Below the pieces are notes generated by a model. That model was given only the letters and a program-made list of their open reading frames with translations, was not told where the DNA came from and did no database searches. Made by a program: the position numbers and the translations under genes. From contig OY970178.1 in assembly GCA_963707915.1 (NCBI GenBank), positions 3,328,001-3,392,000 on the forward strand: DNA of 64,000 nt, given 5' to 3'. Below, piece by piece: positions 17,119 to 37,480 of this stretch. The stretch is from Candidatus Eiseniibacteriota bacterium. Lineage in GTDB: Bacteria; Eisenbacteria; RBG-16-71-46. Numbering within the stretch: position 1 is the stretch's first letter; each line of letters starts with the position of its first letter.

Positions 17119-18096
17119 GTGGATCCAATGATCTCTGCACTAGATGCAGTGTATCCCGAAGACGGCCTCTGCCGCATCCTCGCGTTGGACGGTGGTGGGG
17201 CGAAGGGCTTCTATACCCTCGGGGTGCTCAAGGAAGTGGAGGGGTTGCTCGGGTGTCATCTCCACAAACGCTTTGATCTCGTCTTCGGGACGAGCACCGG
17301 TGCCATCATCGCCTCCCTGATCGCGCTTGGACACAGCATTGACGAGATCCACGCGTTGTACAAAGCCCACGTTCCTCGCGTCATGGCCGAGCGCTCCCCC
17401 CGGGGTAGGGCAGCGGCCCTCGAGCGCTTGACCAAGGAGGTCTTTGGAACGAAGTCGTTCGAAGACGTCAGGACGGGTGTCGGGGTCATCGCGACGAAGT
17501 GGTCGATCGAAAGACCGATGATCTTCAAGGGAAGCGTTGCGCAAGCCCACGGCCGTAGAGGGACATTCACGCCAGGGTTTGGGGTGACGATCGCCGACGC
17601 GGTCAAAGCTTCCTGCTCTGCCTATCCGTTCTTCGATCGCACCACCTTGGTGACGTCTTCGGGGGATAGGGTCGAACTCATCGACGGAGGATATTGCGCG
17701 AACAACCCGACGCTCTACGCGATCGCGGATGCGGTTGCCGCGCTGGGGAGAGACACCAAGGACCTGCGGGTTGTGAGCGTGGGGGTGGGAAGTTACCCCG
17801 AGCCAAAGCCGGGATTGAAGATGTGGCTGGCGAAGAAATACCTTGTTAGCGTCCAGCTGCTGCAGAAGACACTCGAGATCAACACGCAATCAATGGATCA
17901 GCTCCGAGCGATTCTGTTCCGCGAGGTCCCCACTATTCGGATCAGTGACGCATTCGAGCACCCGGAGTTGGCCACGGACCTCTTGGAGCATGACCTCGCA
18001 AAGCTCAACCTCTTGCACCAACGTGGGAGGGAGTCATTTGCGTCGAGAGAAGACCAGCTGAAGGCCTTTCTCCTACCTAGCGGGACGACAGCATGA
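17119..18096 (+). CDS. capE: CBASS patatin-like phospholipase effector (CapE/CapV type)
   Basis: DGGGAKG, GTSTG and DGG motifs. Overlaps the CD-NTase start (ATGA). Confidence 0.88.
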   Translation: MDPMISALDAVYPEDGLCRILALDGGGAKGFYTLGVLKEVEGLLGCHLHKRFDLVFGTSTGAIIASLIALGHSIDEIHALYKAHVPRVMAERSPRGRAAALERLTKEVFGTKSFEDVRTGVGVIATKWSIERPMIFKGSVAQAHGRRGTFTPGFGVTIADAVKASCSAYPFFDRTTLVTSSGDRVELIDGGYCANNPTLYAIADAVAALGRDTKDLRVVSVGVGSYPEPKPGLKMWLAKKYLVSVQLLQKTLEINTQSMDQLRAILFREVPTIRISDAFEHPELATDLLEHDLAKLNLLHQRGRESFASREDQLKAFLLPSGTTA

Positions 18097-18986
18097 CAAT
18101 CCCAGAAGCGCAGTTTGAAACCTGGGCGCATCAAGGCTCAATCGCACAGTCACGCGACACCTATGCCTCAGTGGGTCGTGTATTGCGCGCGTCGGACACC
18201 CCGTACTCCGGGAAGGCGTACCGTGTGTTCCTGCAGGGATCTTATGGCAACGACACCAACATCTATGCGGAGAGCGACGTCGACGTCGTGATCTGCCTGG
18301 ACGAGTGCTGGGGCAGCGATCTCTCGGAGTTGTCAGGGCCGGAAAAGGCCGCGTACGAGAGCTCTCACGTGACGGCGACGTATTCTCATGTGGACTTCAA
18401 GCGCGATGTGCTGGATGTCCTCAGGGCGCAGTACGATGACGACGTTGAGGCTGGGGACAAGGCCATTGCGATTGCCGCTAACGGCAACCGCAGAAGATCG
18501 GACGTCATTGTCTCTACGGAGTTCAGGCGCTACAGGCGTTACGTGAACGCCACCGACCAGGACTACGTGACCGGAATCTGCTTCTTCAACAAGTCCGGAG
18601 CGCGCATCGAGAACTACCCCCGGCAGCATTCAGAGAACCTGACACGTAAGCATCAAAGCGCGGGAAATGGGCTGAAGCCAATGATTCGGGCCCTTAAGAA
18701 CCTCAGGGGGAGGCTGGTCGACGACGGCGTGATTGAGTCAGATCGTGCGCCGTCCTACTACCTCGAGGGACTGCTGTACAACGTGCCAGACGAACTGTTT
18801 GTCACAAGCCTCCAGCAGACGTTCGTAAACAGCGTCAACTGGCTACAGTCTGAGGCGGACAAGGCGAAGCTCTTGTGCGCGCATGAGTTGTACTATCTCC
18901 TCTGGGATGACTCTCCGACATCGTGGCCAAGAACTCATTGCGACGAGTTTCTTTCGGCCGCGACTGACCTGTGGAACGAGTGGTGA
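18093..18986 (+). CDS. cdnE: cGAS/DncV-like nucleotidyltransferase, CdnE-like
   Basis: IPEAQFETWAHQG, QGSYGNDTNIYAESDVD, NYPRQH and PSYYLEGLLYNVP motifs. Confidence 0.9.
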   Translation: MTIPEAQFETWAHQGSIAQSRDTYASVGRVLRASDTPYSGKAYRVFLQGSYGNDTNIYAESDVDVVICLDECWGSDLSELSGPEKAAYESSHVTATYSHVDFKRDVLDVLRAQYDDDVEAGDKAIAIAANGNRRRSDVIVSTEFRRYRRYVNATDQDYVTGICFFNKSGARIENYPRQHSENLTRKHQSAGNGLKPMIRALKNLRGRLVDDGVIESDRAPSYYLEGLLYNVPDELFVTSLQQTFVNSVNWLQSEADKAKLLCAHELYYLLWDDSPTSWPRTHCDEFLSAATDLWNEW

Positions 18987-19108
18987 GCAAGTACTCGGGC
19001 CGGTAGTCTCGGACTTCCGTCATTGTCCGTTTCGATCTTCAAGTCCGGCAGGTAGAAGTCCGTGGTCTCGAAGAGCCAAGTTCGAAGACGGACGCAAGTG
19101 GTCCGCCA
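18935..19108 (-). repeat. Divergent copy D of the serine recombinase C-terminal tail / att-like site
   Basis: Minus strand reads WRTTCVRLRTWLFETTDFYLPDL, with the same W-x7-RTWL-x6-LPxL spacing as the recombinase tail. GAGCCAAGTTCGAA is shared with the 23.67 kb copy. Confidence 0.6.
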
Positions 19109-19483
19109 CTCACAGGAGAGTTTGGGCCAAGCGAATACATGTCGCCCCCGTGGGTTACGACCCGCGGGGGCGATCTTGTGTCTTGGCAGATCTGGGCGCC
19201 TTGGGGAGCGTTCGGGCAGCCGAAGGAACCGCAGAATGGGACAAGAACGGTGACAAGAATCAGAGATCACTTGCGCCGCGATCGACGGCCGTGCGCTAGG
19301 CCGGGTGCCCGGCGTTCGTCGAGGACTCGGGGCATGGGATTCCGGCGGGTGGCGTCTTCTGGTGGTCACGGATGGACACGAGAGAACAGCGAAGGACCCG
19401 TTAGGCCGCCAAAGTAGCAACCATTTGGTAGCCAGAATCCGGCTACCAGAGCAGCGGTCTAGGCGACCGCGTGGCCGCAACCC

Positions 19484-19511
19484 TTGACGAGCCCGCTGGG
19501 GGGTGTATGCT
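19484..19511 (+). promoter_or_regulatory. Sigma70-like promoter for the lexA-led operon
   Basis: TTGACG-N16-TATGCT immediately before ATG 19522. Confidence 0.5.
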
Positions 19512-19521
19512 GCTGTATGCG

Positions 19522-20154
19522 ATGACTCTCCGACCTCTCACCCCCAAGGAATTCCAAGCTCTCCGGCACATCCGGAACTGCCTGGCACATGGCCAACCCG
19601 CGCCCACCGTTCGCGAGCTAAAGGACCTGCTGGAGTACCGGTCACCACGCTCCGCGGCGGTAATTCTGGAGCGGCTTGCTGCCCATGGGTTCATCCGCCG
19701 CCGTCCGGATGGCCAGCTCCAGCTGCTCCGCGATCTGCCGGAGGGAGCCGCCCATGCGCGTACCGTGCCCGTGCCGCTCGTGGGCGCGATCGCCTGCGGC
19801 GCGCCGCTTCTGGCCGAACAGAACATCGAGGCGATGATTCCGGTCTCGCTCTCTCTCGCCCGTCCGCCGCACAACTACTTCATGCTTCGCGCGAAAGGCA
19901 ACTCTATGAACCGCGCGGGCATCCAGGATGGTGATCTCGTGCTCGTCCGACAGCAGCCAACTGCCCAGGACGGCGACCGGGTGGTCGCCCTGATCGATGA
20001 CGAGGCTACGGTCAAGGTGCTGCGACGAGCGGGCGATGCGATTGCTCTCGAACCGCGTTCAACGAACAAGCGGCACGAGCCCATCCTCGTGACTACGGAT
20101 TTTCAGGTCCAGGGCGTTGTCGTCGGAACTATTCGTGCCCCGCGTATGAGGTAA
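19522..20154 (+). CDS. lexA: LexA-family repressor (wHTH + S24 peptidase)
   Basis: PTVRELKDLL, IACGAP cleavage-site region, GNSM (catalytic Ser) and ATVK (catalytic Lys). The start could be 19507. Confidence 0.9.
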   Translation: MTLRPLTPKEFQALRHIRNCLAHGQPAPTVRELKDLLEYRSPRSAAVILERLAAHGFIRRRPDGQLQLLRDLPEGAAHARTVPVPLVGAIACGAPLLAEQNIEAMIPVSLSLARPPHNYFMLRAKGNSMNRAGIQDGDLVLVRQQPTAQDGDRVVALIDDEATVKVLRRAGDAIALEPRSTNKRHEPILVTTDFQVQGVVVGTIRAPRMR

Positions 20155-20163
20155 TCTTGCACC

Positions 20164-21036
20164 ATGGCCATTTCCGAACAACAACTCGCGAGCTGGGCCA
20201 AGGGGCCGGGTGCCACCGAGCAGGAGCGTTGCGACACGACTGTGCGCCGCATCACTGAGGCCCTGCGTCCGTTCTACGGTAGCCGAGTGACCATCTTCCC
20301 GCAGGGCTCGTATCGGAACCGGACGAACGTGCGGCAGGACAGTGATGTAGACGTGGCGGTGGTCGAGAGCTCCGCCTACATTGGCGATACGTCGCGGATG
20401 GGACCTGAGGCTTTGGCGCGGTGGAACGCGATGTCTCCAGCCAGCTACACATTCGCGCAGTTGAAGGCGGACGTGCACCAACAACTCACCGCCGCCTTCG
20501 GGCCACGTGTTGAACGCCGTAATAAGTGCATCTTCGTACCTGAGACCGCCAGCGGCGTTGACGGTGACGTTGTCCCCGCCTTCGAGTACCGGCTGTTCGA
20601 CTACAACGGCTACAAGACGGCCAGCGGCATCGCTTTCTACGCTGACCGGGGCGGATTGTTCACCAGCTTTCCGCAGCAGCACTACGATAACGGGGTGGCG
20701 AAGAACGACCGGACGCAGCGGATGTACAAGCGAGCGGTGCGCATCCTCAAGAATGCTCGGAACACCCTCGTAGAGAACGGGCAGCTGGGGGACACGTTCG
20801 CGCCGTCATTCTTCCTTGAATGCCTTACGTACAACGCGGCCGACCGAGTGTTCTTGGCAAGCACCTATACCCAAAGCATCAAGCAGGTGATCGAGGACCT
20901 TTGGGAAGCAACCAAGCCCAGTCGCAGCGGGAGCCTCGTGGAAGTTAGCGAAGTGAAGCCGCTCTTCACGGCCGAGCACACCGCGGACGAGGCACGCACG
21001 TTCCTGCGAACCGCCTACACGTTCATCGGGTTCTGA
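20164..21036 (+). CDS. cdnE: Second CD-NTase, CdnE-like
   Basis: ISEQQLASWAK, QGSYRNRTNVRQDSDVD, SFPQQHYDNGVAKN and PSFFLECLTYN motifs. Confidence 0.9.
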   Translation: MAISEQQLASWAKGPGATEQERCDTTVRRITEALRPFYGSRVTIFPQGSYRNRTNVRQDSDVDVAVVESSAYIGDTSRMGPEALARWNAMSPASYTFAQLKADVHQQLTAAFGPRVERRNKCIFVPETASGVDGDVVPAFEYRLFDYNGYKTASGIAFYADRGGLFTSFPQQHYDNGVAKNDRTQRMYKRAVRILKNARNTLVENGQLGDTFAPSFFLECLTYNAADRVFLASTYTQSIKQVIEDLWEATKPSRSGSLVEVSEVKPLFTAEHTADEARTFLRTAYTFIGF

Positions 21037-21038
21037 GC

Positions 21039-21668
21039 ATGGGCATTCAACTCCATCGCGCAAGCCATTTCGTCCTCTTCATCTTAGTGCTGCCGCTCCT
21101 CAGCTTGGCGTTGGCTTGGGAATGCAGCCGAGTCGTGGCGATGGTGGTTCCCCCTGGCTGGGCATTTGCCGTCGATTCGGTCGGCACGATCGGCGCCTAC
21201 GGTCTTCTGTTCAAGGCCTTTGACCTCTGGCTTTGGCGGTGGCCGGCCTTTCGCTCCCTGGGCATCGTTCAGCCCCCTCTCATGGCAGGCCGGTGGGTCG
21301 GTTCATTGCGTTCCTCCCATGACAATCATGAGACCCGCCACGAGGCCGTGGTGGAAGTACGCCAGAGCTTCACTTCTGTGCGCGTGGCCATGTACTTCGC
21401 GGGCTCGCGATCGGCCAGCCTGATCGCGGGGTTTGCGCAGGAGGCGGATGGTGGCGTGGCGCTCCACTACGAGTACCAGAACGTGCCGTCCGTTGATGCT
21501 TCGCGGACCATGCACATTCACTACGGCACGGCCACGCTCCAGTGCGTCCCGGGACGGCCGCGGATGGAGGGGCACTACTACAACTGGGGACGTGACGAGA
21601 GAGGGCACTACGGAGTGATGGAGTTCTCCTTCGAGAGCGCTAAACTACTGGGCCGGTTCTCCCAGTGA
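21039..21668 (+). CDS. cap15: CBASS Cap15-like effector (2TM + SMODS-associated beta-barrel)
   Basis: Two N-terminal TM helices, then FDLWLWRW, GRWVGSLRSS, YEYQNVP, HYGTA and GHYYN motifs. Starts 2 bp after the CD-NTase. Confidence 0.82.
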   Translation: MGIQLHRASHFVLFILVLPLLSLALAWECSRVVAMVVPPGWAFAVDSVGTIGAYGLLFKAFDLWLWRWPAFRSLGIVQPPLMAGRWVGSLRSSHDNHETRHEAVVEVRQSFTSVRVAMYFAGSRSASLIAGFAQEADGGVALHYEYQNVPSVDASRTMHIHYGTATLQCVPGRPRMEGHYYNWGRDERGHYGVMEFSFESAKLLGRFSQ

Positions 21669-21722
21669 CGCTCACGAACTGAGTCCACAACGCATTAACT
21701 AACTAAGAGAAGGAGATAACGT

Positions 21723-21980
21723 ATGGACACGCAGGACAAAGTAAAGACCGTCACGATCATCGTGGAAGGCACTCCGCACGAGTGGCCCAAGGGTGAGATC
21801 ACCTACGCGGAGGTCGTCACTCTTGAAGTGCCGGACTACGCGCAGCACCCGGAGATCACGTACTCGGTGACCTACAAGCGCGGGCACGGCGAGAAGCCCG
21901 AAGGGATTCTCGTGAAAGGCGGCTCGGTCAAGGTAAAGGACGGGATGATCTTCCGTGTTTCAGAAACTGGTCAGTCATAA
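21723..21980 (+). CDS. Multiubiquitin-domain ubiquitin-like protein
   Basis: Beta-grasp pattern VTIIVEG...ITYAEVV...YSVTY...VKVKDGMIFRV, ending TGQS. Strong AAGGAG RBS. Confidence 0.85.
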   Translation: MDTQDKVKTVTIIVEGTPHEWPKGEITYAEVVTLEVPDYAQHPEITYSVTYKRGHGEKPEGILVKGGSVKVKDGMIFRVSETGQS

Positions 21981-23142
21981 CGACGACTTGGGTCGTTTGG
22001 TCGACAAGGGTTATGCCGTCGGCTTCGACCCGGGGCTTCTGATTGTTCGTGATATCCCGTACCTGGATGACCAGAAACGACTGCAGATTGGTGCGATTGT
22101 CGCGAAGCTGGTTCTCATCGACGACGACCGAGTCAGCCAGGACGATCACCAGATCTACTTCGCTGGCTCTGCCCCTTGCGACGTCAACGGCTCGGCGATC
22201 CCCAATCTCGCTGGCGGCTCCGCCAGCATCCCGATGAGCGACGCAAACAAGGACGTGGTCGTTCAGCGGTCGTTCTCTAACAAGCCTCGTGCCACGGGGA
22301 AGTTCGACAACTTCTTCGACAAGATCGAGAGCTACGTAGCGATCATTTCGGGTCCAGCCATGGAGCTGTACCCCGATGCGACTCCCTTTACGTTCCACGT
22401 CGTGACGACCTATCCCGGGTCGGTATTCAAGTTCCACGACACCCTTACAAGCAGAGCTGAAATCGGAGATCTGTCCGGGAGGTTCAAGGACGACATCATC
22501 GCGGTCATTGGACTTGGTGGCACCGGCGCGTACCTGCTGGATCTTCTGACGAAGACGCAGGTGCGCGAGATCCGCGCGTTCGACCACGACCACTTCTACG
22601 TGCATAACGCCTTCCGGTCTCCAGGGCGACTTCAATCAGGAGAACTCGGAAGGCTGAAAGCGGACGTGTACCGGGACCGCTACGACTCGTTTCGAACCGG
22701 GCTCTCGATCGAGAGGAGACTGATTGACGCCTCCTCGGTGGACGCGTTGGACGGCGTGACCTTCGCGTTCGTGTGCGTCGACAAGGGCTCGTCGCGGGCG
22801 GGCGTATTCGATGCCCTTCTTTCCAAGCGCATCCCGTTCATTGACGTCGGGATGGGCCTGAAACGCAGAGACGGCAGCCTGAACGGAATGCTGCGCGTCA
22901 CCTACTTCTCGTCGGAGGATGGTGGGCAGGTGCGCGCGAAGGGACTCGCTGAACTGGCCGACACGCCGGACGACCTCTATCGAACCAACATCCAGACCAG
23001 CGAGTTGAACGCGCTGAACGCTGCCTTGGCCGTCGTGAAGTTCAAGAAGCTCCGAGGCTTCTACTTCGAGGAAACGCCCTACTACCATCTTCTCCACGAC
23101 GTTGGAGACTCCACGATGGTCGGGGAATCGGAGCTGACATGA
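21955..23142 (+). CDS. E2-like (DUF6791-type) + ThiF/E1 fusion protein
   Basis: N-terminal DIPY...DHQIYFAG...SFSNKP. C-terminal GLGGTG, DHDHFYVHNAFR, FVCVD and NIQTSELNALNA. Confidence 0.85.
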   Translation: MFQKLVSHNDDLGRLVDKGYAVGFDPGLLIVRDIPYLDDQKRLQIGAIVAKLVLIDDDRVSQDDHQIYFAGSAPCDVNGSAIPNLAGGSASIPMSDANKDVVVQRSFSNKPRATGKFDNFFDKIESYVAIISGPAMELYPDATPFTFHVVTTYPGSVFKFHDTLTSRAEIGDLSGRFKDDIIAVIGLGGTGAYLLDLLTKTQVREIRAFDHDHFYVHNAFRSPGRLQSGELGRLKADVYRDRYDSFRTGLSIERRLIDASSVDALDGVTFAFVCVDKGSSRAGVFDALLSKRIPFIDVGMGLKRRDGSLNGMLRVTYFSSEDGGQVRAKGLAELADTPDDLYRTNIQTSELNALNAALAVVKFKKLRGFYFEETPYYHLLHDVGDSTMVGESELT

Positions 23143-23540
23143 GGTTCAGGCTCCAGCGAGTTGAGTACATGCCCAAGACCCTGGAGCCGGGGGTCCTGTA
23201 CGTCTCAGAAGCTTTCGGCACAGCAGCGCACCTCTGCGCCTGCGGTTGCGGCTCCAAGATCAGGACACCACTCGGCCCCACTGAGTGGCACGTCGAGGTT
23301 ACGAAGCGGGGACCAAGCCTGTATCCCTCCGTCGGGAACTGGCAGAAGCCCTGTCAGTCGCACTACTGGATTCGCGAGGGCAACGTGCGGTGGGCAGCGA
23401 AATGGACATCGGAGGAGATTGCCACGGGTCGCAGGCACGAGGAGGAACGCCGACACGCGTACTACGACTCCGGTCGTCCAGCGCCCGGGAATATCCTGGC
23501 GAGATTCTGGTGCTGGCTGAAGCGTCTGCTTGCTCGCTGA
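23139..23540 (+). CDS. DUF6527 family protein (putative Ubl-processing peptidase)
   Basis: HLCACGCG and SLYPSVGNWQKPCQSHYWI motifs. ATGA overlap with the ThiF gene. Confidence 0.82.
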   Translation: MRFRLQRVEYMPKTLEPGVLYVSEAFGTAAHLCACGCGSKIRTPLGPTEWHVEVTKRGPSLYPSVGNWQKPCQSHYWIREGNVRWAAKWTSEEIATGRRHEEERRHAYYDSGRPAPGNILARFWCWLKRLLAR

Positions 23541-23579
23541 CCCAGCTTGTCCACAGAAGGTGCCACTCTAGTGTCGTAC

Positions 23580-23704
23580 CCCCTCTAGGCAGCTTCGCTG
23601 CTTCGTGGCACACTGACTTCACCCTTGAGCCGGTCGAGCTTCGGCAGCGGAATCCACGCGTGTTTCTTGAGCCAAGTTCGAACGTCGTCCCTCATGGCGC
23701 ACCA
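23580..23704 (-). repeat. Copy A of the serine recombinase C-terminal tail / att-like site
   Basis: Minus strand WCAMRDDVRTWLKKHAWIPLPKLDRLKGEVSVPRSSEAA* (23585-23704), homologous to 24582-24701 and 25628-25717. Confidence 0.9.
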
Positions 23705-24007
23705 GCGTCGTTTTGGTGCATCCACCCCCACGAAAAGTGGATAACGAGCAGACCGACCGCCAATCAAGGCGGTTTTGTTGTTTGCGGTAGGGGGGTGGAC
23801 GTGACAACAGAGACGCGAAACGGTGAGTTATACCCAGAAGCGAGGACGTTCGAACTCGCGGCAAGAGTTCGAAGCGACTACTTGACCAGCCCCTGAGGAC
23901 ATGGTTGGGTGACTAAGTGGATTGTTCGTTTCGCACAACATTCAATTCGTTCCTCCCTTGCCTGATGCTCGCACGCATGGTGTGCGCAGCAGTCCAGGGG
24001 AGGAACG

Positions 24008-24274
24008 ATGCGCAGGTTGCGGTTGCTTCCGATAACGTTCGGGCCGTCCTATGAGGTCGCACCGACCCCCGGCACGAAAGCTGCTGCCACCTGTACGGTC
24101 GTCGTCGCGGCGGTCGTGCTGGTAGCGGTTGCAGTTGCCGTGGTGAGATGGCCGTGGGTCGCCATGCTCGCAGGTGCCGTGGCCGCATTCACCTGGGGAC
24201 GGAAACACTACGGTGGTGACGCAATCATCGTGGGTATCGTGCTCCTTGTCGCGGGGTTGTCTCTGCTGAGGTAG
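24008..24274 (+). CDS. Small multi-TM membrane protein, hypothetical
   Basis: GGAGG RBS and 2-3 hydrophobic segments. Confidence 0.6.
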   Translation: MRRLRLLPITFGPSYEVAPTPGTKAAATCTVVVAAVVLVAVAVAVVRWPWVAMLAGAVAAFTWGRKHYGGDAIIVGIVLLVAGLSLLR

Positions 24275-24366
24275 GTGCAATCGCACCTTCCAGAGTTATC
24301 GCTCGCGGGTCGATCTCTTCGGAGTTCGACCCGCTTCTTCTTGTCTCATCAACTCAGATGACGGCC

Positions 24367-24585
24367 ATGGAACATGACCAACGTTTTGCTCTGGGGCTGA
24401 CCCAGGCTGAGGTGGATCGACTGCGCGACATTATCCATCGGACTCGTGGCGTCACGTTATCGGAGCAAGAAGCGTGGGTGTGTGCAATCCGGCTTCTCAG
24501 TCTCGGACTGACGACTCTGAAAGCGACCGCGCCGAAGGAAGACATCCACAAGGATGAGACATGCGTGGTGCGTCCGCCCCTCTAG
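24367..24585 (+). CDS. Small protein, paralog of the 27226-27432 recombinase-associated protein
   Basis: QRFALGLTQAEVDRLRDIIHRTRGVTLSEQEAW aligns with QRFALGLTEAEVDRLRDILRRTRGLELTREEAW. Confidence 0.75.
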   Translation: MEHDQRFALGLTQAEVDRLRDIIHRTRGVTLSEQEAWVCAIRLLSLGLTTLKATAPKEDIHKDETCVVRPPL

Positions 24586-24701
24586 GCAGCAACGCCTTTT
24601 CGTGGCAAACTATCTTCGCTCTTCAAACGATCAAGCTTGGGCAGCGGAAACCATGGAGTTTTCTTGAGCCAGGTTCGAACGTCCTCCACGATGGAGCACC
24701 A
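24577..24701 (-). repeat. Copy B of the serine recombinase C-terminal tail / att-like site
   Basis: Minus strand WCSIVEDVRTWLKKTPWFPLPKLDRLKSEDSLPRKGVAA* (24582-24701). Same 120-nt length as copy A and a shared CCCCTCTAGGCAGC end. Confidence 0.9.
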
Positions 24702-24767
24702 AGAACGAATCTTCGAACAAAAACACAAATCCAGCTTGATTCCATTAATCAGAGCTGAGTTCGAACT

Positions 24768-25631
24768 ATGAGACACAAGTTTCCAGACAACTTTGTAACT
24801 ATTGGCCATTTTGGCTTAGAGCAGCATTACTCAAAACATGCTCCACACGACATTCTTACAAAGTTACGCCATACATTAGGTTCCCTGATTGGATCTGAAG
24901 GAGACGTGGTGTATGTTTTTATCCTCATAAGAAAGCTTCTAGAGTTAGATAAACATAAACGAGTCTTTCCGACGTTGTCGCTGATATGTGATTGGATAGC
25001 ACATGTGCGGCTCGATAGAAATAGCACTGGTTACAAAATCATCGAGAATATAGATCGGGAACTCTATTTCAAATACGCCGTGCTTGATAAACGACCGTAT
25101 GATCGGAATAGGACAAAAGCACAGGAGCGGCATATAGAACGTCAACTTGCGGGCTTATGGACATTGCGTGGCGAGTTGAGATTCTTCTTACGCCATTATC
25201 ATCTCCCGATTACGATTGTAAATAAAACCCCATCATGGAACCGATTACGTCGTTTTCTGTTTAATGCTCTCGCGAATAGTCCCCTCACAGTTCAAACAGC
25301 TGACGATCTATTAGTAATAAAAAGCATCTCATTCACTTCTGTTTGGCACGAAGCTCAACCCCAATCATCCAGGGCAAGAAATCTATTTAACGATCCGCCA
25401 TACCCCAGATGTAGAATTCTAGTTAAGGATGGGATAATGCTGCCAGGAACTGAGCATATGAATCCAGAAGATGAGCAGATTATAGAGGTCTCATTAAAGA
25501 CTGTAGACATTCGCGACTTTATTTCCGAGGAGGAGTTTGTTAAACTTCAAAAGACGATGAAGGATCTTCCAGAACATTTCTTCAAAGACGATCCCAAAAC
25601 TACCGGAACCACCCGAACCAAATCATCTTAG
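24768..25631 (+). CDS. AT-rich hypothetical cargo protein
   Basis: 287-aa ORF, visibly the most AT-rich stretch in the window. Contains VYVFILIRKLLE...LICDWIAH. Its stop overlaps the recombinase stop. Confidence 0.7.
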   Translation: MRHKFPDNFVTIGHFGLEQHYSKHAPHDILTKLRHTLGSLIGSEGDVVYVFILIRKLLELDKHKRVFPTLSLICDWIAHVRLDRNSTGYKIIENIDRELYFKYAVLDKRPYDRNRTKAQERHIERQLAGLWTLRGELRFFLRHYHLPITIVNKTPSWNRLRRFLFNALANSPLTVQTADDLLVIKSISFTSVWHEAQPQSSRARNLFNDPPYPRCRILVKDGIMLPGTEHMNPEDEQIIEVSLKTVDIRDFISEEEFVKLQKTMKDLPEHFFKDDPKTTGTTRTKSS

Positions 25632-27187
25632 CTTTCAACGAGACGATCCAACCGAGGTAGTGGCAACCACTTATCTTTCTTTAACCAAGTTCGAACGTCG
25701 TCCCTTAAGGCGCACCAATTGCTAATGAGCCCTTGTCCTTCGATGAAGGAGAAGGGTTCGTTGGCTTTGTAGAGCGGTTCCTTGCCTTCGACCGCGAAGT
25801 TCGAAGCGACGGCCTGGACAATTTCCCGTCGTTGAACTCCGACCCCGCGCTCGAAGGCCGCCGCGCAGCGGTTCGTGAACTGGAAGAGCTCGGTCGCGCG
25901 CTGGAGGTACTCCTCCGGCTCGGTCGGCGGAACCTCGAGCTGCAGCTTGAGCTTTGCCTGTCGCTCCAAGATCTCAAGCCTTCGCTTCTCGAAGAGGTCC
26001 TCGTCTACCTGCCCGCGCAGCCGAAGCGTGAGCAGCGTTTCGCCCTCACGCAGGGACGCGCCGAGGGCCTCCTGGAGCGAGCGGTGTGAGGCTGTGTCGG
26101 TCACGGTCTCCGCCTCCAAAGTGTGCTTCAGGTTCTCCGTCACCCATCCGACCACTTCCTCCGGCACGGCCACGGCATGCAGGGTCTTCTGGATCGCCGT
26201 CTCGAAGTCCGGCTCCGGAATGCAGGTCGCATGCGGACAGGGCGTGCTTCTCCCAAGGCCATGACAGCGGTAGTACACGTAGGTTCGACCTGACTGCTTG
26301 CGGTGCTGCTCGCCGGTCAGAAGTCCGCCACACTTGCAACGCAGTAGCCCGCCGTAGGGGAACTCGTGACGCGCCGGGCGGGCGCGCCCTGGCCGACCAA
26401 GGATACCGGCCGCACGCTCGAACTCCGCCGGGGTGACCATCGGCTCATGGCCGCCGCGGTAGCTCTCACCGCTGCGCAGCTGGATGAGCCCCATGTAGTA
26501 GGGATTCTGGAACATCCGGTAGAGCATCGTGATGCACATCGGCCGGCCGCCCAGTCGCGCCGTCTTGCGCGTGCGGAAGCCCCACTCCTCGGTTGCCAGC
26601 TTGAGGATCTGCTTGGGGCGGAGGCTATCGGTGAGCACGAGGTCCCACATCTTGCGCACGAGCGTGAACCGCTCGGGGTCTTTCACGACGGTCTTGGTCG
26701 CATGGTCCTCGATGTACCCCAGGGGCGGGCGGAAGTTCGGCCAGCCGCGCTGGAACCGCGCACGGTTGCCGCGCCGCACGTTTTGCCGCAGATCGTCGAT
26801 GAACTTGGTGGCGATGCCGAGCTCGAAGTTGCCCATGAAGCGGTCATTGCCGTCAGCGGTGTACGTCCGATCCGAGGTGATGACGGTGAGCTTGTGGTCG
26901 GCCAGCGCTTGCAGGACCCGGCCGGTGTCGGCGTGGTTGCGCGCCAGCCGGTCGAGCTTCCAGCACAGCACGGTCGCGATCTCGCCCTGGGACACGCGGC
27001 GCATCAGTTGATCGAAGACCACGCGGCCCGGAGCTTTAGCCGAGCGCGACTCGGAGAGGATCTCCGCGACCTGGTGCCCATGGCGCAGCGCCAGGAGTTT
27101 GAGCTCTTGGACTTGGGAGTCGATGGAGAGGACCTGCCGATCCTCGGATTCGCTGGATTTCCTAGCGTAGATGACACATTGCGGCAT
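25628..27187 (-). CDS. Large serine recombinase (resolvase + recombinase + Zn-ribbon/coiled coil)
   Basis: YARKS (catalytic Ser), ESRSAK, KLDRLARN, PLGY, NPYYMG, GLLRCKCG and YYRC motifs. Confidence 0.95.
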   Translation of the reverse strand: MPQCVIYARKSSESEDRQVLSIDSQVQELKLLALRHGHQVAEILSESRSAKAPGRVVFDQLMRRVSQGEIATVLCWKLDRLARNHADTGRVLQALADHKLTVITSDRTYTADGNDRFMGNFELGIATKFIDDLRQNVRRGNRARFQRGWPNFRPPLGYIEDHATKTVVKDPERFTLVRKMWDLVLTDSLRPKQILKLATEEWGFRTRKTARLGGRPMCITMLYRMFQNPYYMGLIQLRSGESYRGGHEPMVTPAEFERAAGILGRPGRARPARHEFPYGGLLRCKCGGLLTGEQHRKQSGRTYVYYRCHGLGRSTPCPHATCIPEPDFETAIQKTLHAVAVPEEVVGWVTENLKHTLEAETVTDTASHRSLQEALGASLREGETLLTLRLRGQVDEDLFEKRRLEILERQAKLKLQLEVPPTEPEEYLQRATELFQFTNRCAAAFERGVGVQRREIVQAVASNFAVEGKEPLYKANEPFSFIEGQGLISNWCALRDDVRTWLKKDKWLPLPRLDRLVES

Positions 27188-27225
27188 AGAGGTCTAGGTA
27201 GTGATGCCTCAAGTTCGAAACGCAG

Positions 27226-27432
27226 TCAAGAGGGAGGACCTTCGAACTCGCGGGGTTTCCTTGAAGAGGTGGCCTGGAGGATGGTCCAGCCGAGGGAGAG
27301 AAGTTGAATCGCCTTGGCCCACGCCTCCTCGCGCGTGAGCTCCAGCCCGCGCGTGCGCCGCAAGATGTCGCGGAGGCGGTCCACCTCCGCTTCGGTCAGG
27401 CCAAGCGCGAAGCGTTGCGTTCGAGCATCCAT
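27226..27432 (-). CDS. Small protein directly upstream of the recombinase (candidate directionality factor or regulator)
   Basis: 68-aa ORF co-oriented with the recombinase, with a paralog at 24367-24585. Confidence 0.7.
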   Translation of the reverse strand: MDARTQRFALGLTEAEVDRLRDILRRTRGLELTREEAWAKAIQLLSLGWTILQATSSRKPREFEGPPS

Positions 27433-27596
27433 GCAACCATGATCGCGCAGGAGTAGCGACCGGCGTAGGGGGGAGGACGTCCACAGGGCGAGCTTCGCTG
27501 TGCATAGCGACAATCGAATCCCTCTTCCACAGACATGCACAGTTTGCGCACCTCCACCCCCCTACAACGATTCCCTGGCAGGACTATCGTGGAAGC

Positions 27597-27878
27597 ATGT
27601 TGGTGCAATACACCAAGCGAACGTGGCGAAACCGGCCGCGCTTCCCCAACAAGATCCGCGAGTACCGCCTCAAGGCCGGCATCTCGCAGAGCAAGCTCGC
27701 CGCCCTGCTCGGCCGCGGCCGCAACGCGGTCTCGTCCTGGGAGCGTGGACTGTCGCTGCCAAACGTGCCGCGTCTCCTACGCATGGCGAAGATCCTCGGC
27801 ACACTCTCCGAGGCGCTCTACTTCCAGTTCTACTCCACCCAGGGAGCAGATGGTGAGCTCAGCGGCACTGCGGCATGA
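27597..27878 (+). CDS. Cro/CI-type HTH transcriptional regulator
   Basis: IREYRLKAGISQSKLAALLG...VSSWERG..LP. Confidence 0.88.
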   Translation: MLVQYTKRTWRNRPRFPNKIREYRLKAGISQSKLAALLGRGRNAVSSWERGLSLPNVPRLLRMAKILGTLSEALYFQFYSTQGADGELSGTAA

Positions 27879-28360
27879 GGGAGCGTCTCTTGCGCTGGTT
27901 CATGGCCCACGCCAACGGTCGCGGCGTGGTGCTGGGCCGAAGCGAGGTCATGGAGGCGGAGCTGGACGCAGCGTCTGACGTGCTTCAACAGGAGCTCACA
28001 GCATTGGAGCGGGAGGGAGTCGTCGAGATCATCGCCCCGCTACCGTTCCTTGTCCTTCGACTCAAGAAATGGTCTGGCAGGGGCCAACAAAGCACCTTTG
28101 CCTATAGCTCTCTGCTATCAAACAATCAATTGATTGAAAGCAACAGCCATAGGCACGATCCACTCCTCCACGAGATCCTCGAGACACTCGGGGAGACGGA
28201 CGTGAAGGCGTTCGCCCCGGTGCTCGAGCACTACTCCCCGCAGATCATTCGCACCGCTCTGAGAAGGGTCCGCCGCGCCCGCGGCATCCGGAAGAGCCGC
28301 ACCGCGCTCTTTCGCCACCTGCTCCCGCGACTCGCGCAAGCCGAACCCGAGCGCAACTAG
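27875..28360 (+). CDS. Hypothetical wHTH protein, replication-initiator-like
   Basis: wHTH-like N-terminus. The C-terminal IRKSRTALFRHLL motif recurs in the next gene. Confidence 0.6.
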   Translation: MRERLLRWFMAHANGRGVVLGRSEVMEAELDAASDVLQQELTALEREGVVEIIAPLPFLVLRLKKWSGRGQQSTFAYSSLLSNNQLIESNSHRHDPLLHEILETLGETDVKAFAPVLEHYSPQIIRTALRRVRRARGIRKSRTALFRHLLPRLAQAEPERN

Positions 28361-28368
28361 CCCTCCCC

Positions 28369-28899
28369 ATGTCCTCGCTCCAACCCATCACCCTTACCCT
28401 CGATCGCCGCATCCTCGAGCATCCGCGGGCCTACCACCTGCGACGCATGCGCGCGGGACTCTGGCTCTACCTCGACCTCTTGGCCCGGCTCCCGGCCGAC
28501 GCTGAGACGTTCGAGGTGGAGCCCGCGGCGGTCGGGCGGGACATGGGGCTCCCGGAGGGCACGGTCCGCTCCTGGCTCGGGCACCTGCGAAAGGCCGGCT
28601 ACCTCGACGCCGTGCGCCTCAACGGCAAGGTCCGGGTGACGATCAAACGGGCCGCAGCGCCGGAGACCCCGGCAGAACCCCCGACGCCGACACGCTTCTT
28701 CACGGTCGCCAAGCTCCAGCGAGCGCTCGGCGAGCCGGGCAACGCCGAGGCCTTCGAGGCCGCGCTCAGCCTCTACCCGGACGACGGTCGTGAAGCGCGC
28801 CCTCGCCGGCACGCTGGCGGTGCCCGAGACCCAGATCCGTCGCTCACGCACCGCGCTCTTTCTTTACCTCCTACAACACGCCATGCCCAAGAAGACTGA
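28369..28899 (+). pseudogene. Paralogous wHTH protein, frameshifted near 28788
   Basis: GLWLYLDLL...TVRSWLGHLRKAGYL. The C-terminal IRRSRTALFLYLL continues in another frame. Confidence 0.6.
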
Positions 28900-29400
28900 C
28901 ACCATCCTCGCCCTCGATCCCGGTCTCCGCGACCTCGGCTACGCCGTGCTCCACGGCCGCCGCCTCGTGGCCAGCGGCGTGCTCGCGCTGCGGCGCGTCC
29001 CGAAGGCAGAACGTCTCGCGCACAGCGCGCAAGCACGTGCGCACGTGGCTGCGAACGCACCGTCCGCAGCGTCTGGTCGTCGAGAAGACCTACCGCCATC
29101 CGGTGCCGTGGCTCGATCGAGCTCCACCGGCTCACGCGCAGGCCCGGAACCTCGCCACCCGCCAGCACACCGCCTTCGCCATGTACTCGCCGCAGACGCG
29201 TCCGCGCGACCGTCGCCGGCAACGGCAAGGCCAAGAAGCCCGAGGTCGCCATCGCCGTCGCGCATCCGCTTCCCGCAGCTCCGGGTCTACCTCACGCAGG
29301 ACCGGCGCTGGAAGGAAGCGTACTGGCAGAACATGTTCGACGCGTCGCGCTGGCGCTCCATCACCAAGCAGCGACGCAACCGCCCTCCCGCAGCCGGTGA
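28883..29400 (+). pseudogene. RuvC-like Holliday junction resolvase, multiple frameshifts
   Basis: ILALDPGLRDLGYAV, then LVVEK, then YWQNMFDA in shifting frames. The end is approximate. Confidence 0.7.
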
Positions 29401-29515
29401 TCCGGCCGACCCTGGCGCCTCCGCCTTGCCGAGCGCCACTGTCTCGGAAGGGGTCCGCAAGGGACCTCCGACGAGCAGCCCTCGGGAGGGCATTTGATTC
29501 ACTACACACTCACCC

Positions 29516-30025
29516 ATGAACACACCAAGACCATCCTCGGCATCGACCCCGGCACGAAGGAGATGGGCATCGCCGTGCTTCGCGGCCGAAAGCTGCTCGC
29601 GTACGGCGTGCACACGCTCCGCAACGGCGAGCGGCCCTACGACGTGATCGGCCAGGCCCGGCGGGTCGTCTTGGAGTACCTCGAGCGCTATGCCCCGGAG
29701 GTGGTGGCGATCGAGGCGCCGCTGCATGTTGCCGACCAAGCGCGCGGCGATCCTCTCGGTCATCGCGCAGGAGCTGCGACAGAGGGCGAATGAACTCGGC
29801 CTCGAGGTCCTTGAGCTCACGCCGCAGGAGGTGCGGCAGCGGGTAGTCGGGAACCCGCGCGCGACCAAGATTGACGTCGCGGAGGCGCTGGTGGCACGGG
29901 GGTTCGAGGAGCTCAAGGATCTTGTGCCAAAGCGACCGACCCGGGCAGCCTTGGGACTCAGGCCGGGCCAGAAGTACTGGCTCCACATGTTCGATGCGCT
30001 GGGGCTCGCTTGGGCCATCACCTGA
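29516..30025 (+). pseudogene. Second RuvC-like resolvase, frameshifted
   Basis: ILGIDPGTKEMGIAV, VAIEAP, GNPRATK and YWLHMFDALGLA across frames. Confidence 0.72.
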
Positions 30026-30281
30026 GTGCCCCCACGTGCAGCGCGCGAATGACCTATTGCGGCAGAGCACGATTGCGACTAGTGTACAGTCGTATACGGT
30101 TTGCTCTCAGCCCACTTTGTCGGGATCCGCTGCGCCCCCTATGCCTAAGGGCAACCCTAGTGATCTCACGAGCAACGAGGGCCGCCATGCCTGGTTGCGT
30201 CAGTCCCTTCATGGTTGCGCTCACGCCCTCTAGCCGGGCGGTGGACCGAGTTACGGCGAGCGGCCCGGAGGTTCCCCACCC

Positions 30282-31721
30282 ATGAGCACCGTGATGCTCG
30301 TCGACCTGCCTTACGCGCGCGGCGAGTACAACGAGCCGCTGGCGGTTGAGTTTTTGGCTGCGCAGTTAGTCGAGCGCACGGGGGCAACTACCGCAATCCT
30401 CGCCTTAGATCGGGGCTTCTCGGCCTCCGTCCTGACCGAGGCCATTCTGACTCTGAGGCCGGATCTTGTCGCGCTGTCCACGAAGCTCGATAGTATCACG
30501 CTGCTCCCCGAAGTTGGCGACGCGGTGCGGCGCAGCGGAATCAGATGCAGTGTGGTCATCGGTGGCATCGCTGCGACAATTGCACCAACCGAAACATTGG
30601 CGGCGCTAGGAATGCCTGAGGCAATCTGTGTTGTTGGAGAAGGCGAGGATGTCCTGTGTCAGGTCGTCCTCGGACTCGGTGCGGAAGGCCCAACGGATGG
30701 CGGGGAGAGTACCCCCTTGGGGCCCAACAGAGTCATCGGATCACCGCCCTCTTCCAGGTACCCACTCAGCATGCCCGCCGACCGGAGTTTGCTTGGCCGT
30801 ACCATCGCCTCGCGCGGCATCGCGCGTTGCGAAGCAAGCAGAGGTTGTCCGTGGGGCAAGTGCACTTTTTGCGTCATCGGGCGGAAGTACGGTGCGACCA
30901 CTTGGCGACCCCGTCCCCCAATCAGAGTAGTAGAAGAACTTGACCGAATTGCCGCGATGGGGGTGGAGATGGTGTACTTCACCGACGAGGACTTCATCGG
31001 CGGTGATGCCGAACGCGCGCTGTGGATTGCTGAACATGTACTAGAGCGCAAGGCCGAGGGACGCATCCCCGAGACCTTCCGACTTTGGTGTTCGACTAGC
31101 GTGCTGAACATCCTCGGTCGCTATGACGACCCTGCACGCGTTCGCGCGGCACTCGTCAGGCTCAAGACCGCCGGACTCGCGGGTGTGTTCCTCGGCGTCG
31201 AATCGGGTAGCCCCACCCAACTCAAGCGCTATGCAAAGGGTGCAACCGTCGCCCAGAACGAAATGGCCCTCTGCATACTTGAGGAGATGGGGTTGGAAGC
31301 GGACGTCGGCTTCATCATGTTCGACCCCTTTGTTACCATCGAGGAGCTTGCGGAGAACACGGCCTTTATTCGCCGAACCAGTCTCAAGGATGGGTTCTCT
31401 CGCTTGGGGAAGCCGGTTCGGCTCACGCCGTATACGAGCCTTACGTCCCGTGCGATACGGCATGGGCTTTGTCGAAGTCAACTCTCCATTGATACGCTAT
31501 CGTACCCGTACCACTTCGCTGACGCACGCACCGCGGCGGTCTTCGAAGAGTTCTCGACTTGGGAGCAACGCACGGCACCTCGGGCCTATGACCTCCAATC
31601 GGTTCTTCGCGCAAACGGCTACACCACCGAGGGCGCATATAAAGCCAGGAGCGACCTCGTGGCAATGCGTAGGGAGCAGCTCGACAAACTCGCTGAGCTT
31701 ATCGAGCTGGCCAAGCGCTAG
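30282..31721 (+). CDS. B12-binding radical SAM protein
   Basis: EPLAVEFLAA, IGGIAAT, VGEGE, SRGCPWGKCTFC, FTDEDF, GVESG and GFIMFDP motifs. Confidence 0.9.
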   Translation: MSTVMLVDLPYARGEYNEPLAVEFLAAQLVERTGATTAILALDRGFSASVLTEAILTLRPDLVALSTKLDSITLLPEVGDAVRRSGIRCSVVIGGIAATIAPTETLAALGMPEAICVVGEGEDVLCQVVLGLGAEGPTDGGESTPLGPNRVIGSPPSSRYPLSMPADRSLLGRTIASRGIARCEASRGCPWGKCTFCVIGRKYGATTWRPRPPIRVVEELDRIAAMGVEMVYFTDEDFIGGDAERALWIAEHVLERKAEGRIPETFRLWCSTSVLNILGRYDDPARVRAALVRLKTAGLAGVFLGVESGSPTQLKRYAKGATVAQNEMALCILEEMGLEADVGFIMFDPFVTIEELAENTAFIRRTSLKDGFSRLGKPVRLTPYTSLTSRAIRHGLCRSQLSIDTLSYPYHFADARTAAVFEEFSTWEQRTAPRAYDLQSVLRANGYTTEGAYKARSDLVAMRREQLDKLAELIELAKR

Positions 31722-37465: not shown

Positions 37466-37480
37466 CAAAGTCGGCCCCAT

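What the first reader, a model, noticed from the sequence alone, without database searches (positions are those of the whole stretch)
25628..25740. Recombinase tail has the base composition of the neighbouring AT-rich cassette, not of the recombinase body
Seen: the recombinase body is GC-rich, but its final ~90-110 nt (for example CACTTATCTTTCTTTAACCAAG) are AT-rich like the convergent cargo gene 24768-25631, and their stop codons overlap. Copies A and B use GC-richer codons for the same residues (TTTCTTGAGCCA). Inference: the current C-terminus arrived with the most recent cassette, so the gene is a chimera created by its own recombination reaction.
Basis: partly seen in the sequence, partly recalled or inferred. 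Interest (0 to 1): 0.7.

Follow-up and report, generated by a model that had tools for sequence, protein, structure and literature searches.

The report
Recombinase tail swapped by inserted cassette
The last twenty codons of this serine recombinase gene came in with a small AT-rich gene cassette that inserted into the gene's own end, the newest layer in a stack of mostly anti-phage gene cassettes.

Summary

The 519-aa large serine recombinase (LSR, 25628-27187, minus strand) has GC3 of 0.85 in its body and 0.39-0.47 after the GTTCGAAC core (25689-25696).

Its last 29 codons recur as three displaced copies, all on the same strand and all downstream:
- B, 24586-24701
- A, 23589-23704
- Z, about 19007-19110

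These copies bound a 1-kb AT-rich orphan gene, a 1-kb decayed element and a CBASS operon.

The decisive result comes from metagenome contigs of 92-96% identical relatives. One joins the LSR body directly to tail B and skips exactly 1016 nt at the core. Another joins it to tail A and skips 2013 nt. So tail C arrived with the AT-rich cassette.

Ten of 27 related LSR genes from several phyla carry the same downstream tail arrays. Remoter relatives end inside tRNA genes.

Caveats:
- The GC3 decline starts 20-50 codons before the core, and homologues without cassettes show it too.
- That the LSR itself catalysed the insertion is inferred, not shown.

The nearest precedent is the Dehalococcoides DsiB ssrA islands. 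Earlier notes of this scan describe tRNA-anchored arrays of this kind in other genomes. Here the array is anchored in the recombinase gene itself.

The parts
25628..27187 (-). Large serine recombinase gene (519 aa). The body is native; the last ~20 codons are cassette-borne.
   Evidence: Pfam Resolvase, Recombinase (weak) and Zn_ribbon_recom. Translation. GC3 profile.
25631..25717 (-). Active site C. Arm 25697-25717 (codons W491-R499), core GTTCGAAC 25689-25696, tail C 25631-25688 (TWLKKDKWLPLPRLDRLVES).
   Evidence: Repeat family D1, translation, HMM hit E=8e-10. The joints of relatives' contigs fall here.
24697..25688 (+). Cassette 2, the newest unit. One unit runs core to core, 24681-25696 = 1016 nt, GC 0.41. 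Its cargo ORF 24768-25631 (287 aa) has no known family. The unit ends with arm B and begins with tail C.
   Evidence: Composition. No hit in Pfam, PHROGs, PADLOC or the Atlas. One homologue at 60% identity. Exactly these 1016 nt are skipped in a relative's contig.
24586..24701 (-). Displaced site B: arm 24681-24701, core 24673-24680, tail B ending at a TAG.
   Evidence: HMM E=1e-16. Joined directly to the recombinase body in run X7.
23705..24585 (.). Cassette 1, a decayed recombinase element. It holds the inverted partial site U' (23834-23866), ORF 24008-24274 and orfX' 24358-24585 (67% identical to orfX).
   Evidence: Repeats D11, I2 and I3. BLASTP 36/54 identities, E=4e-24.
23589..23704 (-). 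Displaced site A: arm 23684-23704, core 23676-23683, tail A.
   Evidence: HMM E=1e-15. Joined directly to the recombinase body in run X1.
19111..23588 (+). CBASS cassette: LexA-like 19471-20154, cyclase 20164-21036, 2TM/Cap15 effector 21039-21668, DUF6791-ThiF (E1/E2-like) 21955-23142, DUF6527 23139-23540.
   Evidence: Pfam and PADLOC.
19007..19110 (-). Outermost displaced site Z: arm 19088-19110, TTCGAA 19081-19086, tail LRTWLFETTDFYLPDLKIETDNDGS. This tail is close to the active tail of homologue L016.
   Evidence: HMM E=1e-5. Alignment.
27227..27253 (+). U, an inverted copy of the core plus about 9 nt of arm. It lies 40-66 nt upstream of the recombinase start codon and overlaps the end of orfX.
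   Evidence: Inverted repeats I4 and I10. A like-placed inverted copy was found in 10 distinct related loci.
27226..27432 (-). orfX, a 68-aa gene directly upstream of the recombinase on the same strand. Its function is unknown; a regulator or directionality factor is a guess.
   Evidence: tblastn hits directly upstream of the recombinase gene in L105, L024, L014, L026, L015, L016, L104 and L110.
27535..30070 (+). Conserved backbone that travels with the recombinase. It includes the XRE-type HTH regulator 27597-27878, ORFs 27875-28360, 28369-28899 and 28790-29497, and sequence up to ~30070.
   Evidence: tblastn hits in 10-25 related loci at the same relative position. PHROGs names the HTH gene a repressor or regulator.

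Best explanation
The recombination site of this large serine recombinase lies inside its own last 29 codons. It has a 21-nt arm (W491-R499), a GTTCGAAC core (V498-T500) and then the tail.

A circular DNA carrying a matching arm, core and a complete replacement tail recombines with this site. It lands between the recombinase body and the old tail. The enzyme then reads into the incoming tail. The old tail, now preceded by the cassette's arm, stays behind as a scar that is still a full site.

Repeated insertion built the stack Z | CBASS | A | decayed element | B | AT-rich orphan gene | C-recombinase, with the newest unit next to the enzyme. Tail C therefore arrived with the 1016-nt AT-rich cassette.

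Shown: the repeats, the chimeric junction, the cassette-free relatives and the recurrence in other genomes.

Inferred: that this recombinase catalyses the reaction, that cassettes travel as circles, and that the crossover is at the core.
For: 1. Only four arm+tail copies exist in the 3.62-Mb genome. All are on the minus strand and downstream of the single recombinase gene.

2. TTCGAA occurs 345 times in the genome (0.095 per kb) but 11 times within 23677-27241.

3. Relatives lack the cassette(s), as shown by Logan contigs.
- Run X7: a 212-nt contig runs 24577-24672 and then 25689-25802, skipping 1016 nt with 11 shared letters at the joint. The two pieces are 92-94% identical to the window.
- Run X1: a 160-nt contig runs 23585-23695 and then 25709-25757, skipping 2013 nt. 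In the same run a 1725-nt contig covers 25748-27400 with 67 differences, and a 1078-nt contig reaches the CBASS end.
- At the X7 joint the two sites share only 11 identical letters, too few for a k=31 assembler to join them by mistake (my reasoning).

4. Tails A, B and C differ mostly at synonymous sites: pS 0.46-0.53 and pN/pS 0.31-0.48 over 26 codons. They evolved as working coding tails, not as decaying local duplicates.

5. A and C are 90% identical over the 42 nt from the TGG codon to 13 nt past the core, and less alike beyond. In L016 the same window is nearly identical and starts at the same TGG.

6. An arm+tail HMM found extra copies behind 10 of 27 distinct recombinase genes. All were on the same strand and downstream. 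None was on the opposite strand at E<0.05, and only two weak hits lay elsewhere (L054 at -5927, E=0.003; L102, E=0.014).

7. Genomes G012, G086 and G005 have intact recombinase genes and no second copy elsewhere at E<0.1.

8. In 38 of 38 remoter (mostly CPR) loci, the recombinase ORF ends inside an antisense tRNA gene. A crossover inside the 3' end is therefore a family trait.
Against: - The GC3 drop begins 20-50 codons upstream of the core. Codons 482-490 (4 of 9 GC3) lie outside the repeat and are not explained by a crossover at the core.
- Homologues without arrays show a similar decline.
- In run X1 the arm carries the two A-type letters, so the aligner places that joint at 23695/25709 rather than at the core. 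Either that strain's own arm differs, or the crossover can lie nearer the TGG.
- All sites look alike, whereas phage-type enzymes use distinct attP and attB sites. The reaction therefore cannot follow that scheme.
- How the recombinase backbone itself entered the genome is unexplained. No site copy lies at its far end.
- The relatives' contigs are short and of low depth (2.6-4x).
- No recombination was observed directly.
Confidence: 0.75

Rival explanations
1. Tandem accretion of complete elements followed by decay. Each unit once carried its own recombinase of this family and integrated through its own arm|tail site into the resident site. The extra recombinase genes were later deleted. Tail C would then be the native tail of a lost AT-rich recombinase. 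The present gene would still be a chimera, but there would be no class of recombinase-less cassettes.
For: - Cassette 1 holds orfX' (67% identical to orfX).
- It also holds U' (21 of 23 nt identical to U), 136 nt from arm A, in the same order as orfX-U-recombinase-arm.
- Contigs in runs X2, X5 and X7 show the arm-B core inside another recombinase-like 3' end with a further tail type (loose ends).
Against: - Cassette 2 and the CBASS cassette show no recombinase, orfX or U relic.
- No orfX hit lies inside the arrays of the other loci, and none of the cargo ORFs I scanned there matched a serine or tyrosine recombinase family.
- At 1016 nt, cassette 2 has room only for its single ORF.
Confidence: 0.2
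2. The exchange was made by homologous recombination or gene conversion between diverged recombinase 3' ends, not by the site-specific reaction. The repeats would be substrates, not products, of the enzyme.
For: - The AT-rich zone and the GC3 change point (25741 or 25840) reach beyond the core into the body.
- The X1 joint is placed in the arm, not at the core.
Against: - Sites B and C share only 11 identical letters at the X7 joint, too few for RecA-type exchange (established knowledge, not tested here).
- In every array examined at the DNA level the repeat begins at the same TGG, 22 nt from the core.
- Related enzymes sit at tRNA T-loop cores.
Confidence: 0.08
3. The recombinase element is the newcomer. 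It inserted next to a pre-existing AT-rich gene that already carried tail C.
For: Tail C and the AT-rich gene would be contiguous under this reading too.
Against: - No arm|tail copy lies upstream of the recombinase anywhere in the closed genome, nor in the up to 10 kb held upstream of the related recombinase genes.
- Relatives have the same recombinase at the same place with tail A next to the CBASS end, or with tail B.
Confidence: 0.04
4. There was no transfer. The AT-rich tail reflects local constraints (binding-site sequence, Lys/Leu/Phe-rich peptide) that lower GC at the 3' end of all genes of this family.
For: - All 19 tails in 8 arrays are AT-richer than their recombinase bodies.
- GC3 declines toward the 3' end in homologues without arrays as well.
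Against: This does not explain the displaced tails A, B and Z or the relatives whose recombinase carries tail A or B.
Confidence: 0.03

Closest known systems
Dehalococcoides ssrA-specific genomic islands with the serine recombinase DsiB (McMurdie et al. 2011, PMC3146451; I read passages found by term search)
   Same: [quoted passage not shown]
- Its stop codon lies in the neighbouring island or target, so the C-terminus changes with the neighbour.
- Islands are stacked in tandem, separated by direct repeats, and some lack an integration module.
   Different: - Those islands are anchored in the tmRNA gene ssrA with a 20-bp repeat. Here no tRNA or tmRNA lies in or beside the array, and the repeat is the recombinase's own 29-codon end.
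- The authors judged the variable DsiB C-terminus probably non-functional. Here the tails keep a conserved peptide, with pN/pS 0.31-0.48.
- The accessory genes differ: the paper lists DsiA, RecF-like, ParB and Mom, whereas here they are orfX, an XRE regulator and unnamed ORFs.
- Whether this recombinase is specifically related to DsiB was not tested.
SCC/SCCmec composite islands of staphylococci (CcrAB/CcrC large serine recombinases; PMC11470126 seen as listing and abstract only; the rest recalled)
   Same: - A large serine recombinase inserts elements at the 3' end of one gene.
- Elements, including recombinase-less ones and anti-phage defence cargo, accumulate in tandem between direct repeats.
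- The same enzyme both integrates and excises (recalled).
   Different: - The SCC target is the host gene rlmH (orfX), not the recombinase gene.
- The SCC enzyme's own C-terminus is not rewritten by insertion.
Integrons (IntI, attI, attC cassettes)
   Same: - A fixed platform with one recombinase gene and one insertion point beside it.
- A one-directional stack of recombinase-less cassettes with the newest next to the enzyme.
- Defence cargo (10.1101/2024.07.02.601686, abstract only).
   Different: - IntI is a tyrosine recombinase acting on folded single-stranded attC sites.
- Here the enzyme is a serine recombinase, the site is double-strand coding sequence inside the enzyme's gene, and cargo genes are often convergent with it rather than driven by a platform promoter.
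SSV-type integrases of archaeal viruses and plasmids (recalled; a lead from an earlier scan note)
   Same: The attachment site lies inside the integrase coding sequence, so recombination cuts the gene.
   Different: - These are tyrosine recombinases, and integration splits and inactivates the gene.
- Here each insertion supplies a working replacement end.

Membership tests
Large serine recombinases | N-terminal resolvase-type catalytic domain with the serine nucleophile | tested here: met
   PF00239, E=2.6e-20, 73.4 bits against a cutoff of 23.3, residues 5-148. Y7, R9, K10 and S11 are invariant in 10 homologues.
Large serine recombinases | Recombinase domain (PF07508) after the catalytic domain | tested here: inconclusive
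   19.5 bits, below the 21.1-bit cutoff, E=0.0012, residues 174-263.
Large serine recombinases | Zinc beta-ribbon domain | tested here: met
   PF13408, 28.2 bits against a cutoff of 25.3, residues 279-335. C284, C286, C308 and C317 are invariant.
Large serine recombinases | Distinct attP and attB sites, with one-way recombination unless a directionality factor is present | tested here: not met
   All four sites have the same arm-core-tail build. Direction of the reaction is not testable with these tools.
Dehalococcoides-type ssrA islands (DsiB) | The recombinase gene overlaps the island's attachment repeat at its 3' end | tested here: met
   The repeat covers codons 491-519. The paper passage was read.
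Dehalococcoides-type ssrA islands (DsiB) | Anchored in ssrA (tmRNA), with copies of its 3' end as the repeats | tested here: not met
   ARAGORN finds only three tRNA genes, at 58-62 kb, and no tmRNA in the window. The repeats encode the recombinase tail.
Dehalococcoides-type ssrA islands (DsiB) | Integration module containing a second small serine recombinase, ParB and Mom | tested here: not met
   Pfam and PHROGs name only an XRE regulator among the backbone ORFs that I scanned.
Integrons | IntI tyrosine recombinase | tested here: not met
   The only recombinase is of the serine type.
Integrons | attC sites that fold as imperfect hairpins | not tested
   No folding was run. The repeats are conserved as coding sequence.
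SCC-type composite islands | Insertion at the 3' end of rlmH by Ccr recombinases | tested here: not met
   The target is the recombinase gene itself. Relatedness to Ccr was not tested.
SCC-type composite islands | Tandem elements, some without a recombinase, separated by direct repeats of the target's end | tested here: met
   Three units lie between four direct copies, with one recombinase.

The most novel reading that the evidence does not exclude
This is a serine-recombinase counterpart of the integron. A chromosomal platform (recombinase, orfX, regulator, inverted operator-like site U) captures recombinase-less gene cassettes, mostly anti-phage systems, at a site inside the enzyme's own last 29 codons. 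Every cassette must therefore bring a working replacement C-terminus. Cassette and enzyme co-evolve, and each capture may reset the enzyme's activity or site preference. The tRNA-anchored arrays of CPR bacteria noted earlier in this scan would be the sister form.
Probability: 0.4. Interest if true: 0.8.

Novelty: new variant of a known kind. Interest (0 to 1): 0.62.

Why it matters
This locus shows, with natural before-and-after states, a recombinase whose gene is rewritten at its 3' end each time it takes up a cassette.

That explains how defence genes such as CBASS, PDC-S06 and TPR-GreAB-C-PIN can be stacked in bacteria that lack integrons. It also gives a simple sequence signature for finding such stacks: orphan copies of the recombinase tail, downstream and on the same strand.

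If the enzyme works on two like sites of about 42 bp without a helper protein, it would also be of practical interest for DNA insertion.

The principle that a serine recombinase gene overlaps its attachment site was noted for Dehalococcoides in 2011. The gain here is a self-anchored form with conserved, exchangeable tails and population evidence for exchange.

Tried and rejected
- **A second site at the far end of the backbone.** I read 29950-30330 and made 18-mer searches at the far ends of 13 loci. Best matches were 10-14 of 18, which is noise. Nothing was found, so how the backbone itself integrates stays open.
- **Upstream or opposite-strand tail copies.** None in the genome at E<0.9. In 97 loci only two weak hits appeared.
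- **Very close relatives in the contig collections.** Metagenome contigs gave 8 loci at 59% identity or less, plus one 174-residue fragment at 73%. Genome contigs gave at most 60%. 101 related genomes gave at most 57%. The breakpoint test therefore came only from sequencing runs.
- **Viral contigs.** 69 loci, all at 35% identity or less over the full match or 46% or less over short pieces, and mostly covering only the first ~310 residues. They gave no sign that this subfamily is phage-borne.
- **Naming the cassette-2 protein.** No hit in Pfam, PHROGs, PADLOC or the Atlas. One 60% homologue without a name.
- **Composition as a general rule.** Tail GC against tail-side flank GC in 19 sites gives Pearson r=0.52 but Spearman 0.23. 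This is not robust.
- **Empty-site synteny in the genus.** Only G005 matches the flanks (86%), and on separate small contigs, so this was not resolved.
- **Run coverage.** None of the four runs covers 24740-25677. By itself this says nothing; only the two joining contigs count.
- **Literature.** Searches for a serine-recombinase cassette array or tail exchange found no description beyond PMC3146451. Subscription journals are not covered.
- **Inversion of the recombinase gene between C and U.** In all 9 loci with an orfX hit, orfX lies upstream on the same strand, so no flipped state was seen.
Full report
**What is there.** ORF 25628-27187 on the minus strand encodes a 519-aa large serine recombinase. 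It has a resolvase catalytic domain, a weak recombinase-domain match and a zinc ribbon. Its stop codon overlaps the stop of the convergent ORF 24768-25631 within the four letters TTAG.

The window is 62-78% GC outside 9.5-39 kb and about 60% inside. The stretch 24700-25700 falls to 38-47%. Total GC is 0.65 for the recombinase body, 0.46 for its last 59 nt and 0.41 for the neighbouring cassette. GC3 is 0.85 in the body and 0.39-0.41 after codon 499/500. No 20-codon window of the body falls below 0.60, while the last 20 codons give 0.45.

**The tail is repeated.** The last 29 codons recur as direct repeats at 24586-24701 (B) and 23589-23704 (A). A more diverged copy (Z) lies at about 19007-19110. 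An earlier first-reader note on this genome pointed me to Z.

Each copy starts at a TGG codon. Next come 22 nt of arm, the core TTCGAA and a tail that encodes the same kind of peptide:
- A: WCAMRDDVRTWLKKHAWIPLPKLDRL...
- B: WCSIVEDVRTWLKKTPWFPLPKLDRL...
- C: WCALRDDVRTWLKKDKWLPLPRLDRLVES

A profile of arm plus tail finds exactly these four copies in the closed 3.62-Mb genome. All are on the minus strand and downstream of the single recombinase gene. The next hit has E=0.9.

TTCGAA is rare in this genome, at 345 sites or 0.095 per kb. It occurs 11 times within 23677-27241.

The tails differ mainly at synonymous sites: pS 0.46-0.53 and pN/pS 0.31-0.48 over 26 codons. They diverged while serving as coding sequence. 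They are not local duplicates drifting apart.

**What lies between the copies.**
- Z to A: a CBASS operon with a LexA-like regulator, a cyclase, a 2TM/Cap15 effector, an E1/E2-like protein and DUF6527.
- A to B: about 1 kb holding orfX', a 67%-identical copy of the small gene that precedes the recombinase. It also holds U', an inverted partial site, 136 nt from arm A. This is the same order as orfX-U-recombinase-arm, so the unit looks like a decayed recombinase element.
- B to C: 1016 nt from core to core, 41% GC, with one 287-aa ORF. It matches no known family and has a single 60% homologue.

**The decisive test.** No relative closer than about 60% was found in the contig collections. I therefore laid the contigs of four metagenome runs from four studies on 23400-27400.

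- Run X7: a 212-nt contig follows tail B (24577-24672) and continues at 25689 into arm C and the recombinase body. It skips exactly 1016 nt. The joint lies within 11 letters common to both sites.
- Run X1: a 160-nt contig follows tail A (23585-23695) and continues at 25709 into the body, skipping 2013 nt. The same run holds the recombinase on a 1725-nt contig with 67 differences, and it holds the end of the CBASS cassette.

So organisms with a 92-96% identical recombinase carry it with tail B or tail A and without the AT-rich cassette. It lies at 25689-25699, or up to 25717 in X1.

Sites B and C share only 11 identical letters at the X7 joint, so a k=31 assembly artefact is unlikely there. That last point is my reasoning, not a tool result.

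**The pattern recurs.** The arm+tail profile, run over 97 loci holding relatives, recognised the active tail of 27 distinct recombinase genes. It found extra copies behind 10 of them:
- L016, L022, L023, L025, L027, L033, L106 and L107, one each
- L039, three
- this window, three

All extra copies are on the same strand and downstream. No hit lay on the opposite strand at E<0.05, and only two weak hits lay elsewhere. L075, which has another tail type, has two copies when searched with its own tail.

At the DNA level the repeat in L016 also starts at the TGG and contains TTCGAAC. In L023 the displaced copy has a one-base shift at the core.

Cargo in these arrays includes:
- PDC-S06
- a LexA-like gene with a TPR-GreAB-C-PIN protein
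- a DUF4062 protein
- non-defence genes: AhpC, an oxidoreductase, an ion channel and a VanX-like peptidase

Genomes G012, G086 and G005 hold intact recombinase genes and no second copy at E<0.1. The recombinase gene is therefore not itself split by integration. It behaves as a platform.

In the remoter members of the family, 38 of 38 loci scanned have the recombinase ORF ending inside an antisense tRNA gene. A crossover inside the gene's 3' end is thus a trait of the whole family. Earlier notes of this scan describe the tRNA-anchored arrays of that branch in CPR genomes.

**Where composition misleads.** The GC3 decline is broad.
- A two-segment model prefers a break after codon 449 or 482 over one at the core: dLL 13.7 and 12.4 against 8.0.
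- Codons 482-490 are AT-rich yet lie outside the repeat.
- Homologues without arrays decline in the same way.
- All 19 tails in 8 arrays are AT-richer than their bodies. Tail GC tracks the adjacent cassette only weakly: Pearson 0.52, Spearman 0.23.

So part of the signal is a family trait of the site and peptide. Only the extreme value here fits the cassette. I have no explanation for codons 482-490.

**Other parts of the system.**
- An inverted copy of the core plus about 9 nt of arm (U, 27227-27253) lies 40-66 nt upstream of the start codon.
- In 10 distinct related loci, the best inverted 22-mer match (16-19 of 22) lies 65-90 nt upstream of the start. It follows local core variants, for example in L025 and L039. 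Shuffled controls peaked at 14-17.
- orfX, an XRE regulator and three or four further ORFs up to ~30070 travel with the recombinase in 10-25 loci.
- U may be an operator or a second recombination site. In all 9 loci with an orfX hit the gene order is unflipped.

**Mechanism and rivals.** The best reading is site-specific insertion of circles carrying arm, core and a replacement tail into the enzyme's own 3' end, with the newest unit next to the enzyme.

The main rival differs only in whether every unit once had its own recombinase. Cassette 1 says yes for that unit. Cassette 2 and the CBASS cassette give no sign of it.

Three further rivals fit the data poorly:
- exchange by homologous recombination
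- the recombinase being the newcomer
- a purely compositional cause

**Known or new.** McMurdie et al. 2011 (PMC3146451, passages read) reported that the Dehalococcoides serine recombinase gene dsiB always overlaps attL at its 3' end. Its stop codon lies in the neighbouring island or in ssrA, and the islands are stacked in tandem, some without an integration module. SCC composite islands are a second precedent.

What differs here:
- the array is anchored in the recombinase gene itself
- the exchanged tails are conserved as protein
- the cargo is largely anti-phage defence
- cassette-free relatives document the exchange

My searches found no paper on this form. Subscription journals are not covered.

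Noticed in passing
window 17119-18986: Just outside the outermost tail copy Z lies a second CBASS pair: a patatin-like phospholipase effector (PADLOC E=1e-161) and a cyclase (E=5e-122). Two CBASS systems thus sit on either side of one site.
   Followed up: partly
window 27227-27253 and 23834-23866; also L018, L019, L020, L022, L025, L033, L036, L039, L108: An inverted copy of the recombinase site core plus part of the arm lies 65-90 nt upstream of the recombinase start codon in many related loci, and it follows local core variants. It could be an operator for self-repression or a partner site for inversion.
   Followed up: partly
window 27226-27432 (-) and 24358-24585 (+): A conserved 68-75-aa protein (orfX) always lies directly upstream of recombinases of this family. 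It matches no family. It is a candidate regulator or directionality factor.
   Followed up: partly
window 28790-29497 (+): A backbone ORF begins with a motif (ILALDPGLRDLGYAVL) that resembles the N-terminus of RuvC-like nucleases. That resemblance is from memory. Pfam and PHROGs gave no hit.
   Followed up: no
window 9914-9973 / 13190-13249 and 10126-10154 / 13135-13166: Direct repeats of 88-91% identity bracket an AriA/PtuA-like ATPase gene and its neighbour. They lie at the low-GC island's left edge, next to a 175-nt imperfect palindrome at 9518-9692.
   Followed up: no
window 37264-37475 / 39047-39298: Two direct repeat pairs (71% over 149 nt, 84% over 57 nt) lie at the right edge of the 60%-GC island. 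They may mark the island's border.
   Followed up: no
L022 3789-3974 (G078:C1:3403297-3403488): A second tail copy follows the recombinase's stop codon by only 25 nt, and TGA stops fall inside the matches. This may be a tail duplication or a very short cassette.
   Followed up: no
G035:C3 end, and C21:223821-226370: A third recombinase of G035 runs off its contig. A tail copy 115 nt from the end of contig C21, and another 2.4 kb further on, look like its continuation and one more array.
   Followed up: no
L025 12618-13370 and L031 14294-14905, compared with window 19471-20154: LexA-like (S24 peptidase) regulators, 45-56% identical to the one heading the CBASS cassette, lie downstream of the recombinase in two other loci. 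In L025 the gene sits inside the cassette; in L031 no array was found.
   Followed up: no
loose ends at window 24667-24701 (runs X2, X5, X7): The 35 nt of core plus arm B occur in three runs inside a different context that reads like another recombinase 3' end with a further tail type. Arm B thus seems to be the native arm of a related enzyme.
   Followed up: no
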